This document shows, in pieces, positions 30,595 to 49,909 of a DNA stretch of 64,000 bases. Made by a program: the position numbers and the translations under genes. The DNA lies in the NCBI RefSeq assembly GCF_025526975.1, contig NW_026515683.1, positions 1 through 64,000 of the forward strand. The letters are read 5' to 3'. Numbering within the stretch: position 1 is the stretch's first letter; each line of letters starts with the position of its first letter. The notes under the pieces are model-generated. The model worked only from the letters and a program-made list of their open reading frames with translations. It had not been told where the DNA came from and searched no databases. The stretch comes from Fimicolochytrium jonesii (lineage: Eukaryota).

Positions 30595-30665
30595 AAGCTG
30601 AGGATTATTGTGTTTTTGAACCAGAAGGGCTGGAAAGCGTCGAAAAACGGCGTTATTCCCAGCTT
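30595..30665. repeat. 71-bp quasi-palindromic site 1 (5' UTR intron of cargo gene 1)
   Basis: AAGCTGAGG...TTTTTGAACC...CGTCGAAAAA...TCCCAGCTT. Confidence 0.9.
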
Positions 30666-30754
30666 GTCAGAGTTTTGACAGCTTGACTGACGTGACTGAC
30701 GTTTGTTCAAAAGTTTAGGTATACCAACACACCCTGCCCTCATCATAAGTGAGT

Positions 30755-31661
30755 ATGGCTTCTTCTTCTTCGGCAACGGGACGGGGACCCAACGACAACG
30801 GGGAGGGGGATATGGGGATGGCCATGTACAACCTGTCAGAAATGCACTGGCAGATGGGGCAGGAGGAGACGGAGACGACGATCGCCGTCTTCCGTTACCT
30901 CTGGAACCTCTATGACCCAGTGATTGTTACCCGCATGGTCGATGGCCACCAGGTCGAGTTTTACTGGTGGTCACTCAACCAATCGAGGCACATCAGGACG
31001 CTGCAGAGGCGTGCCCGCTCGGCGGCGGCCTTCCGCCTCTGTTGAGTGGATTCAGAGGCGCGCATCTACCACGAGGGGAAGCAGGTCAACGGGGTGATGC
31101 TGAGGAAGGATTGGGTCAGGGGTACGTATCTTCTCGACAAGCGGAGGATTAATGCGTTTTTCGACGTCCCCGGCGTGCGCGCGTTGAAAAATCGCATAAA
31201 CCTCAGCTTGTCTTTGTTTTGTTGCTGCGTTGAAGGGCAATAACAATAACCGTGTTCTTCTCTCAGATTGCTTGAGGATCCACCCATTGGACGCAGAGAG
31301 GCTGAGGGATTGGATGTTGCCAGCATGGGACGACACCGCACTATGGCCCCTTGGCCATCTCTGCAAAGGGGCCTCCGTTGCACACAGCATCCATCAGACA
31401 TGGGATGCTCCCGTCTTTCCGCCACCGCCAATCGGCCCAACCGCAACCGCCGCAGCCACCGCCCCCTCCCCAGGCGACTACCTCCAGCCATGGTTGTCCT
31501 TCCAGGACACGGTTGTTGAGGGAATGCGTAGCCCTTCGTCCGAGGTTATCAATGAGGCTGAGGACATCTTCGAAAATACGGAGCAGATGAAGGAATGGCC
31601 GAAGCAAATGGCCGAATACTATAGCTGGAAGAAAACCAAGGATGCTGAAGCCGATGAATAA
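30755..31661 (+). pseudogene. Cargo gene 1: unknown ~253-codon protein with one in-frame TGA (31043-31045)
   Basis: Exons 30755-31121 and 31267-31661 join in phase 1 (GT-AG intron 31122-31266). Probable 5' UTR intron 30589-30718; TATA near 30458. Confidence 0.6.
31139..31209. repeat. 71-bp site 2 (cargo gene 1 intron)
   Basis: AAGCGGAGG...TTTTTCGACG...CGTTGAAAAA...CCTCAGCTT. Confidence 0.92.
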
Positions 31662-31739
31662 TATGTTCCATATCATGCCATTTTTGAATATATTCTGATC
31701 TTTGGCCTCTTCTTTCCTTTTCTCAATTAACATCAGAAT

Positions 31740-47300: not shown

Positions 47301-49127
47301 TGACGGCGTCATCGAGAATTTCCGTAATGCGTGACCCAGCATCAACCTGATTGGCTGAACCTTGTTGTTGATTAGGTTGGCGACTGCGCTGCAGAGTTTG
47401 AGCGCCACGACCGCGCTGTCGAAAACCACCGCGTCGGTTCTGGGTTTGCGAGCCTTGCTGTCGAGTTTCGGGATTTGACCAGCATTCAACTCTCCAATGT
47501 CCCATTTTGTTACAAAAAGGACAAGGAGTCGTTGGACGTTGACAAGGAACGTGAGTAGTTTGCCATTGTCCACGTCAATGAAAGGGCTGTTGACGTTGGT
47601 AGGGAACTGGACCTGAAGTGAGACGACTCACTCCAGGGGGATAGTATGACGTACCAAGGGCATTGAGCCCAAAGGTCATATCATCTAAGTCTTGCTCAAA
47701 TTCCGTAATTCGAGGATTGGTGTAAGGGGCGAATCGTCCGCCACGACCACCGCCACGACTACCTCAACCGCGGCTGGCTCCACGGCCGCCACAAGCACTC
47801 GATGCCGAGGCAATCGGACGAGGCGTATTGGCTTGGTTGCCGTCAGTGACCCCGTGAGCCACATGAGCACGACGAGCTGCAGTGATAGCTTGATCGAGAG
47901 TGATAGGGGTGTTGATATTGGTAGTGCCCGAGAATTCGAAGTTCGTAACGGCTTCAGCGAGATAATGACCGATTACCGTATTCTTGAGAAGACCGGCCTT
48001 GAAGTATCGAATCTAATCGATAAGGGGAATGGTGCCTTGAGTGTTATCGAGACGATGAGCGGCTTTGAGCTCATTATTGGTGTCTTGCAACTCCTTGATA
48101 TATTTTTCAAGAGAGTCACCAAGCTTGAGACCGGAGAGCTTGAGCTCAATAGTATTACGCAAGTTGCGAGGATAGAAGTGAGCGACAAGAGCCGTTTCGA
48201 AAGCTGCCCAATTTGCGGGAGGTCCAGCAGCGTAAGTCGTATTGTACCACTCGAGAGCAGTACCCTTGAGGTAGGTAGTGAGTGTAGGGGCATACTCTGC
48301 CATAGTAAAGGGTATGGCATTGGCAGCTCCAGTCCCGTGTGATCCAGCCTGTACAGCCGGGACAATAAGAGAGTCGAGAAAGTTGTGGTGAGACGTAACA
48401 AACTCTTTGATCTTTTTGGCAGCTTTGGCGCCATCGTATTCGACAAGCTTGTTCTTGCGAGCGTCCATAAGAAGTCTGAAACGTTCGGCTCGTTGGGTTT
48501 CTTGAGTAAAAGCACGCTCCCGATTAGCGAAAGCAGCTGCGACAGCCGCAATGATAGCTTGAGTCTATCCGTCCATTCTTGCTTGTGGACGAGTGTAAGG
48601 GCGACGTCCGGTAGAGGGGTGACGTTGACGAGGAATGTCTTGGTGATGCTAGCGGTAGGTGGTGCTACCATGTAACGTCAGAGGAAACGTAGACGATATT
48701 GGGCCTTTCTGAGAGGGCTGAGAGCAGTGGCTTGTAGTGAAGAAAAAAGTAAGAAGCTCTTTGCAGCGGCCGCTCGACTGACGGCTTTATATATGGGCTG
48801 CCAGTGGGGCTTGCGTGGCTTCATTGAGGCTTGGCGCCTTATGTAATGTATTACCGAGAGCTCGGGTGGCCAGCCCGGGTCTCGGATCAAGGAGAAGTAA
48901 AGAGATATAATATGAAATACAAGTGAAGATGAGATATCCCCGACACCCCATGCTGGCATGGGTCCCTCATTACCGTTCAACGGCAGAAAGGCGAAACGGG
49001 AGAGTTGTAAACCGCGCATGATTTGGTTTCGCTGAAGGGTGGCGTGTTGGATCAAAAAGGACATGTAGTTCCGGAGCCCGGACTCTGGACTTTGCTGCAA
49101 AATAGGAATCCTGAATTAGAAGAGGCC

Positions 49128-49198
49128 AAGCTGAGGTTTATGCGGTTTTTCGACGCGCGCACGCCAGAGACGTCGAAAAATGCACTAATCCTCAGCTT
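49128..49198. repeat. 71-bp site 8 (recombinase intron 1)
   Basis: AAGCTGAGG...TTTTTCGACG...CGTCGAAAAA...CCTCAGCTT. Confidence 0.92.
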
Positions 49199-49838
49199 CC
49201 CAACGATCAACCATTCACGCACCTGCGTCCACCAATGCTTTGCTAGATTCAACCTGTCCTTGTTGTCGTAAGAATCACCCGTACTCCCGATCCCTCAATC
49301 TTTCAAAGCTTTATAATCGTTGTTATACTGATCCCTACTCTGAGTTTTCAGCATCTCCTTTATTGTGGTCGTTCGAGGATAATTGGGTTTGATGTTCTCG
49401 CCCAATGCTTGCTGGGAATGGGTCAAGTCCGTCACGGCCTTGACGTACTGGTCCAACGTAGCCCGTGACATGGGCTTTGGAGGATCGTAGGGCTGTCCTC
49501 TATTGTTCAATGCCCCCCGGGGCTTGACATATTCGTTGAGCCACAGAAGAACTTTGCCTGGCGTGAGCTTTTGCGAGCGCCTGTTGGTGTTGCACCATGC
49601 CAGATACGACCTTGCACGGTGGCCATATGTGTTGTTAGTCTCAACCGGCCTTGCTCGTTGGTTCTTTTTCATTTGTTTAATGGTGCACTGGTGAACTTCC
49701 GCATCCTGCACGTCTTCCAAGTCCTCCACTATGCTATCGTCGTCCCTTGGGGCGTCACCATCGTCCAGACCAGCTGCAGCGGCGGCCTCTGTGGTTGCTG
49801 TAGGGGTCGCAGCCATGTCGTTGCTGTCCAGTGTGTCC

Positions 49839-49909
49839 AAGCTGAGAATTATGCCAATTTTCAACGTTGCCTTGGACTTCTCGCCTGAAAACGCAGTAAC
49901 CCTCAGCTG
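49839..49909. repeat. 71-bp site 9 (5' UTR of recombinase)
   Basis: AAGCTGAGA...TTTTCAACG...CTGAAAA...CCTCAGCTG. Confidence 0.88.

What the first reader, a model, noticed from the sequence alone, without database searches (positions are those of the whole stretch)
30595..49909. Nine quasi-palindromic sites, each exactly 71 bp, confined to introns/UTRs of the element
Sites start at 30595, 31139, 31894, 32377, 38899, 39886, 40861, 49128 and 49839. All follow AAGCTGAGG-N9-TTTTT(C/G)GACG-N15(GC-rich)-CGT(C/T)GAAAAA-N9-CCTCAGCTT with no indels despite many substitutions. After removing nested inserts they are spaced ~440-990 bp apart. They occupy 6 of the element's 7 coding introns (the 54-nt intron at 32817 is too short), both outer 5' UTRs and the convergent 3' gap. 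I saw none in the host-gene introns. Fixed length with imperfect arm pairing suggests a DNA site read by a protein dimer rather than an RNA hairpin. About 70 bp is also roughly the DNA span of an (H3-H4)2 tetramer, which is suggestive next to an H3 cargo (inference).
Basis: partly seen in the sequence, partly recalled or inferred. Interest (0 to 1): 0.88.

Follow-up and report, generated by a model that had tools for sequence, protein, structure and literature searches.

The report
Crypton transposon's histone-sized docking sites
A multi-copy fungal jumping gene that carries its own odd histone H3 gene has nine evenly spaced, exactly 71-base near-palindromes tucked into its introns and gene gaps; their length and A/T spacing fit the DNA wrapped by a histone H3-H4 tetramer, so they are likely protein-docking sites that the element would use to set its own chromatin.

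Summary
Real. Nine gap-free 71-bp sites score 49-83 bits against -1 for the next best place in 64 kb. All lie inside a ~6.2-kb CryptonF-type element (808-codon NDC10_II/GCR1_C recombinase, an H3-like gene, an orphan gene) split by two LTR retrotransposons. Near-identical cargo proteins are annotated on five contigs of the chytrid Fimicolochytrium jonesii, and one model reads through a whole same-length site. The two arms differ by a fixed one-base stagger; the variable 25-bp centre never changes length (at least 83 substitutions, no indel); there is no covariation, strand bias, target duplication or orphan arm. So a double-stranded site of fixed geometry is likely. 71 bp is the published H3-H4 tetramer footprint, and the A/T blocks at ±13-17, ±23-26 and ±34-35 fall on the minor-groove-inward positions (permutation p 0.014-0.033; modest, one ancestral motif). 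The H3-like protein has a 17-residue loop-1 insertion and has lost several basic residues. Best reading (0.42): tetramer-positioning sites plus a sequence-read box, used by element proteins to set the element's chromatin, much as VANDAL/VANC works. Binding and function are untested; recombinase sites or a hopping palindrome remain open.

The parts
30595..30665 (+). 71-bp site 1 (A-B orientation on +), inside a candidate 5'-UTR intron 30589-30718 of the orphan cargo gene
31139..31209 (+). 71-bp site 2 (A-B on +), in cargo intron 31122-31266; 64 of 71 identical to site 8 read in reverse
31894..31964 (-). 71-bp site 3 (most diverged), in inferred 94-nt intron 31881-31974 of the H3-like gene; supplies the only branch-point-like CTAAT; public gene models start at an ATG inside it
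32377..32447 (-). 71-bp site 4, in H3-like intron 32338-32489; present at the same length in another copy (read through by model P0011)
38899..38969 (-). 71-bp site 5, in the convergent gap, 8 bp after the H3-like stop; 64 of 71 identical to site 6
39886..39956 (-). 71-bp site 6, in recombinase intron 3 (39839-39986)
40861..40931 (-). 71-bp site 7, in recombinase intron 2 (40837-40980)
49128..49198 (-). 71-bp site 8, in recombinase intron 1 (49095-49222)
49839..49909 (-). 71-bp site 9, ending 22 bp upstream of the recombinase ATG
39147..49816 (-). CryptonF-type tyrosine recombinase, 808 codons over exons 49816-49223, 49094-48951, 41127-40981, 40836-39987, 39838-39147; NDC10_II and GCR1_C; R, K, HxxR, W, Y catalytic positions present; one in-frame stop at 49295-49297 and an LTR insert break it
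   Evidence: Pfam NDC10_II E 6e-19 and 4e-9, GCR1_C E 1.5e-12; spliced translation; alignment
30755..31661 (+). Orphan cargo gene, 253 codons, one intron, one in-frame stop in this copy; no family, no usable fold
31740..38890 (+). Divergent H3-like gene, exons 31740-31880 (inferred), 31975-32337, 32490-32816, 32871-32968, 38854-38890; 17-aa loop-1 insertion, unalignable N-tail, long basic/acidic C-terminal extension
   Evidence: Pfam Histone E 1.8e-12
32969..38848 (-). Nested young LTR retrotransposon (LTRs 3 differences in 531 bp), 5-bp target duplication GGCAG, in the last H3-like exon; holds no site
41128..48945 (-). Nested LTR retrotransposon (LTRs 13 differences), target duplication CCCCA, in the recombinase; holds a solo LTR of the first family at 43778-44371; holds no site
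30224..30259 (+). Left subterminal cluster, 3 copies of GCGTTACT(GG), unrelated to the 71-bp sites; candidate recombinase-binding repeats
50068..50118 (+). Right subterminal cluster, 2 direct copies, 1 inverted and 1 degenerate copy of the same motif
30178..30185 (+). Candidate left terminal direct repeat TAGGTACA (tentative; 8-mer matches are near chance level)
50124..50131 (+). Candidate right terminal direct repeat TAGGTACA (tentative)

Best explanation
The nine 71-bp quasi-palindromes are fixed-length sites kept in the introns and gaps of a multi-copy CryptonF-type transposon, and they likely act as double-stranded DNA docking sites that would position an H3-H4 tetramer or nucleosome core, likely one built with the element's own H3-like protein, so that the element would set its own chromatin against host silencing. 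Shown: the sites, their fixed length, their confinement to the element, their even spacing, their A/T phasing, the element's three genes, its several copies and their CpG-type decay. Inferred: that the centre is a spacer held to length by duplex geometry; that the A/T blocks face the histone surface; that the invariant AAGCTGAGG boxes at ±27-35 are read base-specifically by an element protein (the H3-like loop-1 insertion, the orphan cargo or the recombinase's GCR1_C domain); that a histone variant which has lost DNA-gripping residues would settle mainly on such strong sites; that site-to-site copying (conversion) keeps the set alike; and that the outcome is anti-silencing, as in VANDAL/VANC.
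For: Fixed geometry: at least 83 substitutions among the nine (48 in the 25-bp centre; tree estimate about 139) and no indel, where three LTR comparisons gave 2 indel events for 22 substitutions; at 1 indel per 11-20 substitutions, none has probability about 0.001-0.02 (my arithmetic). No hairpin selection: covariation score reached by 286 of 500 shuffles; 14 one-sided against 1 two-sided departure in the shared boxes; G-T against A-C 25:15 on one strand (p 0.15), 21:17 on the transcript (p 0.63), and sites lie in both orientations to transcription. No target duplication (0 of 9 for 3-10 bp). Histone fit: 71 bp is the H3-H4 tetramer site (PMC2724288, passages); published minor-groove-inward blocks lie at about 3-7, 13-17, 23/24-27/28, 33/34-37/38 from the dyad, ±1.5 and ±2.5 mattering most (PMC3401446, sections 5 and 13); the sites have A/T 0.94 at 13-17 (AAAAA in 12 of 18 arms), 0.79 at 23-27, 0.31-0.34 in the blocks between, and GGGGA, a listed second-best motif, at 3-7 in 4 of 18; correlation with the nucleosome phase 0.50, permutation p 0.014 (columns) and 0.033 (blocks), free fit period 9.7-10 with phase about 5, positive in 9 of 9 sites. 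Even tiling: CV 0.30, p 0.002-0.019. Context: H3-like cargo with a 17-aa loop-1 insertion, retained R83, H113 and K115-R116, and R40G, T45E, L48E, R49A, R53H, K56H, R63L, R72E against the H3 chain. Separate subterminal repeats exist for the recombinase. Host pressure: 16 of 38 amino-acid variants among copies are CpG-type against 7.5% of possible changes (p 4e-9; p 0.002 against 20%). Precedent for cis motifs in introns and gaps of a transposon read by its own protein: VANC21 (PMC5735166, passages).
Against: No binding, footprint, chromatin or expression data. The phasing rests on one ancestral motif: the majority half-arm alone gives r 0.29, reached by 10.6% of random 35-mers; the centre (1-12) is anti-phased (r -0.28); the independent flanks show no phasing (A/T 0.544 against 0.531). 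The ±1.5 block is an A-tract, not the TTTAA of the strongest sequences, and the TA step at ±23/24 is about 2 bp from the place inferred for 601L. Any dimer binding one face of DNA gives 10-bp phasing, and 71 may be a coincidence (conservation tails to about ±38). Spacings are not multiples of a nucleosome repeat (best R 0.47, null 95% 0.73). Positioning alone would not keep AAGCTGAGG nearly invariant, so a second reader must be assumed. Six site-bearing introns shrink to normal size (57-81 nt) without the site and two pairs are 90% identical only within the site, as a hopping unit would also give. The copies are decaying, so present function in this copy is doubtful. Related Cryptons with such sites were not found, so the link to the histone cargo rests on one family.
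Confidence: 0.42

Rival explanations
1. Internal binding or synapsis sites for the recombinase (or the orphan cargo) as a dimer, acting as transposition enhancers or compaction points with no histone role; pairing of sites by the protein would explain the conversion between them.
For: Two-fold symmetry, invariant end boxes, fixed spacer. The Crypton-derived Ndc10 dimer binds two separate DNA segments (PMC6077249, passages). Two pairs of sites are 64 of 71 identical with unrelated flanks.
Against: Recombinase sites are described as 11-13-bp arms with a 6-8-bp spacer (PMC3212892, passage), not 23 + 25 + 23. A different motif clusters at the element's ends and scores at background level in 7 of 9 sites. 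No scrambling: the two cargo genes have adjacent accessions on three contigs, and intron phases are mixed.
Confidence: 0.25
2. A selfish or neutral palindromic mini-element without target duplication that copies itself locally into the element's introns and is tolerated only there.
For: Six introns return to normal size when the site is removed (57-81 nt against 54 nt for the empty intron); identity of recent pairs stops at the site edge; junctions often read AC|GT.
Against: None in about 44 kb of the window outside the element nor in 13.7 kb of nested retrotransposons; exactly one per intron; no truncated or orphan copies; no indel in a centre diverged to near random; no 3-10-bp duplication. 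Reading AGCT as a 4-bp duplication would need nine AAGCTT targets in under 1 kb of intron, where the window has 0.27 per kb.
Confidence: 0.13
3. A folded structure: a single-stranded DNA hairpin with two staggered extrahelical bases read by the recombinase (attC-like), or an intronic RNA hairpin aiding splicing or yielding small RNAs.
For: With a one-base stagger the inner block pairs in 8, 7 and 6 of 9 sites against 1, 0 and 2 in straight register; 7 of 9 fold with z from -2.4 to -5.8; a tyrosine recombinase is at hand.
Against: No covariation; 14 one-sided against 1 two-sided change; no strand bias; two sites fold no better than shuffles (z -1.5, -0.25); an unpaired loop should tolerate indels (attC lengths vary widely; recalled); no Rfam match at E up to 1. 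Power is low with nine related sequences.
Confidence: 0.12
4. A partitioning or centromere-mimic locus: the H3-like protein is a captured CenH3 that would be loaded on the sites so that the excised circle segregates, as the 2-micron plasmid loads Cse4 at STB.
For: W at the H3 F84 position, loss of Q68 and a long loop 1; Cnp1 scores as well as H3 (41.8 against 42.7 bits); the recombinase family gave rise to Ndc10 (PMC3212892, passage); Cse4 sits at STB (PMC2064333, abstract).
Against: Scores do not separate H3 from CenH3; Atlas neighbours are plain H3 clusters; sites are dispersed through genes, not clustered; no replication or partition genes; no circle seen.
Confidence: 0.08

Closest known systems
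CryptonF DNA transposons (Kojima and Jurka 2011, PMC3212892; passages read)
   Same: Tyrosine recombinase with GCR1_C, no long terminal inverted repeats, several dispersed copies, fungal host.
   Different: Two cargo genes including an H3-like one, and an internal array of 71-bp sites; the passages seen name only a peptidase or a Mariner fusion as extras. Nearest database recombinases are 28-30% identical. Supplements not read.
VANDAL/VANC anti-silencing in Arabidopsis (PMC5735166; passages read)
   Same: A DNA transposon with accessory genes and repeated cis motifs confined to introns, intergenic and terminal non-coding parts; host CpG methylation as the likely pressure.
   Different: VANC motifs are 8-9 bp in tandem arrays in a Mutator-type element; here one 71-bp symmetric unit per intron in a recombinase element with a histone cargo; no VANC homology and no demethylation shown.
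Widom 601 / SELEX consensus for H3-H4 tetramer binding (PMC2724288 passages; PMC3401446 sections 5, 13 and passages)
   Same: 71-bp span, two-fold symmetry, A/T at ±1.5 and ±2.5 turns, G/C between, GGGGA at ±0.5 in some arms.
   Different: Natural and repeated; A-tract without TA at ±1.5; extra invariant end box; affinity untested. PMC3401446 states such maximal-affinity sequences had not been identified in genomes.
hAT elements carrying histone H3-like sequence in Dothideomycetes (PMC6710886; abstract and passages)
   Same: A fungal DNA transposon that amplifies an H3-derived sequence.
   Different: Those are captured copies, mostly ruined by RIP; this protein is far diverged yet keeps the fold, has introns, a loop-1 insertion and a C-terminal extension, and sits with a site array.
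2-micron plasmid STB with Cse4; Ndc10 at point centromeres (PMC2064333 abstract; PMC6077249 passages)
   Same: Selfish DNA, repeated cis sites, an H3 variant, a recombinase-family protein.
   Different: STB is one clustered locus using the host's Cse4; here sites are dispersed and the histone is element-encoded; no segregation role shown.

Membership tests
CryptonF | Tyrosine recombinase with GCR1_C domain | tested here: met
   NDC10_II and GCR1_C above Pfam cut-offs; catalytic positions present
CryptonF | Several copies at dispersed loci | tested here: met
   H3-like cargo on 5 contigs, orphan cargo on 3, adjacent accessions on 3; shown for the cargo genes, recombinase copies were not retrieved
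CryptonF | Short (4-6 bp) terminal direct repeats, no long TIR | tested here: inconclusive
   Candidate 8-mer outside both subterminal clusters, near chance level; no empty site available
H3-H4 tetramer positioning sequence (601-like) | About 71-bp symmetric span | tested here: met
   PMC2724288
H3-H4 tetramer positioning sequence (601-like) | A/T at minor-groove-inward blocks, G/C between | tested here: met
   Met at ±1.5 and ±2.5, partly at ±3.5, not at ±0.5; p 0.014-0.033
H3-H4 tetramer positioning sequence (601-like) | TA steps at the pressure points | tested here: not met
   A-tract at 13-17; TA at 23/24 only
H3-H4 tetramer positioning sequence (601-like) | High affinity and single position on reconstitution | not testable with these tools
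   needs competitive reconstitution
MITE or introner | Target-site duplication | tested here: not met
   0 of 9 for 3-10 bp, 2 of 9 for 2 bp
MITE or introner | Copies scattered in unrelated host DNA | tested here: inconclusive
   none in the rest of the 64-kb window; whole genome not held
Structured RNA or attC-like hairpin | Compensatory covariation or strand bias | tested here: not met
   low power
Structured RNA or attC-like hairpin | Staggered extrahelical bases in a foldable stem | tested here: met
   one-base stagger
lox/FRT-type recombinase site | 11-13-bp arms around a 6-8-bp spacer | tested here: not met
   23-bp arms around a 25-bp variable centre (definition from PMC3212892)
CenH3 | Longer loop 1, no Q68, W at 84, divergent N-tail (list recalled; one search found no paper with all terms) | tested here: met
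   alignments; tail has no PDB match; these traits also arise in other fast-evolving H3 variants
CenH3 | Phylogenetic placement with, and localisation at, centromeres | not tested
   host H3 and CenH3 not retrieved; scores equal for H3 and Cnp1
VANDAL/VANC | VANC-family protein and sequence-specific loss of methylation | tested here: not met
   cargo has no Pfam match at E up to 5; methylation not testable; works-like analogy only

The most novel reading that the evidence does not exclude
A transposon that brings its own histone H3 variant and writes natural 601-like addresses into every intron, so that the variant nucleosome is placed by DNA sequence and insulates the element from silencing: a sequence-addressed chromatin system in the very family that gave budding yeast its point-centromere protein Ndc10.
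Probability: 0.25. Interest if true: 0.92.

Novelty: new variant of a known kind. Interest (0 to 1): 0.72.

Why it matters
Histone variants are normally placed by chaperones and prior chromatin, not by a short DNA address, and strong symmetric positioning sequences are known mostly from test-tube selection. Nine natural copies beside a matching histone gene give a small, testable system: a 71-bp oligo, a histone variant and two candidate readers. It would also add a second kind of transposon anti-silencing and a living model for how a Crypton recombinase, a short DNA site and an H3 variant could come together, the combination seen at yeast point centromeres. If the sites prove to be recombinase sites or a hopping palindrome, it is still an undescribed Crypton anatomy, of specialist interest.

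Tried and rejected
No whole genome is held, so no genome-wide site scan. Sequencing runs: none was listed. Exact-pattern scans found nothing in metagenome, viral and prokaryote collections. Locus searches gave 0 loci in viral contigs and 3 short metagenome contigs of distant Cryptons (28-33% identity, 1.7-2.3 kb) with no comparable repeat, too short to be a control. Rfam: no match. Orphan cargo: relatives only in the same species apart from one weak hit (3 hits), no Pfam family, no usable Atlas hit, model pLDDT 37 so no fold search. H3-like first exon: no PDB match. No complex prediction: no host H4 in hand. Rejected: programmed exon swapping (intron phases 1,0,0,0,0,0,1; gene order kept in three copies); AGCT as target duplication; nucleosome-repeat spacing; subterminal motif inside the sites (above the 95% background in 2 of 9). 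Paper searches listed no paper on a Crypton with a histone cargo or with intronic fixed-length sites; I saw listings only for most, the library lacks most subscription papers, and Repbase-type entries and supplements were not seen. PMC13465315 and PMC11258239 (passages) added nothing on this element or on methylation in this species.
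Full report
The observation. The nine stretches are at the stated coordinates, each 71 bp, and align without a gap. A profile built from them scores them 49-83 bits, and the next best place in the 64-kb window scores -1. No arm occurs alone (best orphan 11.6 bits against 15 or more in register). The true layout, in one orientation, is arm A (9-bp box AAGCTGAGG, ATTA, one free base, TGCG, T5), a 25-bp centre, and arm B, which read in reverse is the same box, WTWA, TGC-N, one base, T5. 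The inner block is thus shifted by one base between the arms while both stay 23 bp long, and the site is polar: two point one way, seven the other, and two of the eight with a known transcript are reversed to it. Conservation drops from 1.7-2.0 bits at ±29-35 to 0.7 at ±36 and background by ±39.

The element. Two LTR retrotransposons with 5-bp target duplications are nested in it (32969-38848 and 41128-48945); neither holds a site. Without them it is about 6.2 kb. On the minus strand lies an 808-codon recombinase with NDC10_II and GCR1_C domains, open across three site-bearing introns but for one in-frame stop, with the catalytic R, HxxR, W and Y positions in place: a CryptonF by the definition of PMC3212892 (passages). 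Its nearest database relatives are 28-30% identical (5 hits among 2268 candidates). On the plus strand lie a 253-codon orphan and an H3-like gene. A different motif, GCGTTACT(GG), clusters near both ends, the more natural place for recombinase binding; the ends themselves are tentative.

It is a family. A search with the orphan's first exon gave 3 hits among 1.84 billion representatives; its cluster has three members and the H3-like exon five, all named as Fimicolochytrium jonesii proteins on contigs of five different lengths, with orphan and H3-like accessions adjacent on three. The host is therefore likely this chytrid. One model of another copy reads through the whole of intron 32338-32489 and matches the window's read-through at 40 of 42 residues with no shift, so site 4 has the same length there; another starts inside site 3 with identical residues. 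Two introns have outside support: public models splice the orphan as I do, and the exon after 32489 completes histone helix 3. The 94-nt intron at 31881 is weaker: public models start inside it. Among copies 16 of 38 amino-acid variants are CpG-type changes against 7.5% of possible ones, which points to CpG methylation of the family (inference).

Duplex or hairpin. Allowing the stagger, the arms pair well and 7 of 9 fold better than shuffles, so an attC-like reading had to be tested. It gets no support: covariation equals shuffles (286 of 500), departures in the shared boxes are one-sided 14 times and two-sided once, and G-T is not favoured over A-C on either strand or on the transcript (p 0.15, 0.63). 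Power is low. The strongest sign is length: the centres are mostly 3-15 of 25 identical between lineages, at least 48 changes, yet none has an indel. Three LTR comparisons in the window gave 2 indel events for 22 substitutions (a tiny, non-independent yardstick). A spacer free in sequence but fixed in length is what duplex phasing between two bound halves demands (inference).

Mobile palindrome. There is no target duplication, no copy in the rest of the window and exactly one per intron. Yet six of seven site-bearing introns are of normal size plus 71, and two pairs of sites are 64 of 71 identical with unrelated flanks, so the unit has been copied or converted as a block. That says how the set spreads or stays alike, not why it is kept. 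Spacing is more even than random (CV 0.30; p 0.002-0.019 for minimum gaps of 71-250) but fits no nucleosome repeat length.

The histone fit. PMC2724288 (passages) gives 71 bp as the H3-H4 tetramer site. PMC3401446 (sections 5 and 13) gives the phosphate positions bounding the minor-groove-inward blocks, from which I take 3-7, 13-17, 23/24-27/28 and 33/34-37/38, ranks ±1.5 and ±2.5 first, and wants G/C between. With the site centre as dyad, period and phase are fixed beforehand. The sites have A/T 0.94 at 13-17, 0.79 at 23-27 (0.63 in the other register), 0.52-0.59 at the outer block, 0.31-0.34 between, and GGGGA at 3-7 in 4 of 18 arms (the last noticed after the fact). Correlation with the phase is 0.50, p 0.014 and 0.033 by two permutations, and a free fit lands on period 9.7-10 and phase 5. 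Against: one ancestral motif is being tested; its majority half-arm is matched by 10.6% of random 35-mers; the centre is anti-phased; flanks show nothing; TA steps are not at the best places; any one-face binder would give the same period.

The cargo histone. It scores alike with H3 and Cnp1 (42.7 and 41.8 bits) and the Atlas neighbours are H3 clusters. Against the H3 chain it has a 17-residue loop-1 insertion, F84W, Q68R, keeps R83, H113 and K115-R116, and loses or reverses charge at 40, 45, 48, 49, 53, 56, 63 and 72. That these residues grip DNA, and that loop 1 lies near ±2.5 turns, next to the invariant box, is recalled structural knowledge. A weakly gripping variant would be predicted to settle mainly on strong, pre-bent sites, which offers a route to cis targeting (inference). 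The orphan has no family or usable model.

Verdict. A real, element-specific array of fixed-geometry sites (duplex protein-binding site: about 0.7). That the bound thing is a histone core serving the element's chromatin state is the best single account (0.42), working like VANDAL/VANC (PMC5735166, passages) without being a member; recombinase sites (0.25), a hopping palindrome (0.13), a folded structure (0.12) and a centromere mimic (0.08) follow. Ten paper searches listed no description; transposon-borne H3 is known from hAT elements (PMC6710886). An unchecked note of this scan reports another recombinase element with an H3 variant in another genome, a lead only.

Noticed in passing
window 30224-30259 and 50068-50118: GCGTTACT(GG) repeats cluster near both presumed ends, in the same orientation with one inverted copy; TAGGTACA lies just outside both clusters.
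   Followed up: partly
window 32964-32969 and 38849-38899: The first LTR retrotransposon inserted 81-85 bp from the centre of site 5, just outside a nucleosome centred there; the second fell about midway between sites 7 and 8. Two events only.
   Followed up: no
sites, positions 10 and 12 of arm A against 62 and 60: In the fold-back, most sites have one mismatch at either position 10 (A-A, 4 sites) or 12 (T-T, 4 sites), because arm B comes in two types (TTTA or ATAA).
   Followed up: no
all nine sites: The unit is an open frame on both strands in one register (24 codons), so gene finders read through or start inside it (models P0011, P0014, P0015).
   Followed up: partly
protein P0007: A more distant (37-41%) relative of the orphan cargo in the same species suggests a second, older family of the element that may carry different sites.
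   Followed up: no
window 43778-44371: Solo LTR of the first retrotransposon family, with a 64-bp internal duplication and target duplication CTAGT, inside the second retrotransposon.
   Followed up: partly
window 25669-29889 and 50277-52022: Flanking host genes: a long gene with several START domains on the left, an Exo84-like gene on the right; no site in their introns.
   Followed up: partly
window 1-25100: Dense transposon cluster: two Copia-like ORFs (6941-8344, 9020-10882), a Tc1/mariner-like transposase (14498-15631), a Gypsy-like element with long open pol (19669-25058) and a short-repeat protein (11146-11958); named by eye, not searched.
   Followed up: no
window 39010-39040: A (GCAC)n microsatellite lies in the convergent gap next to site 5.
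   Followed up: no
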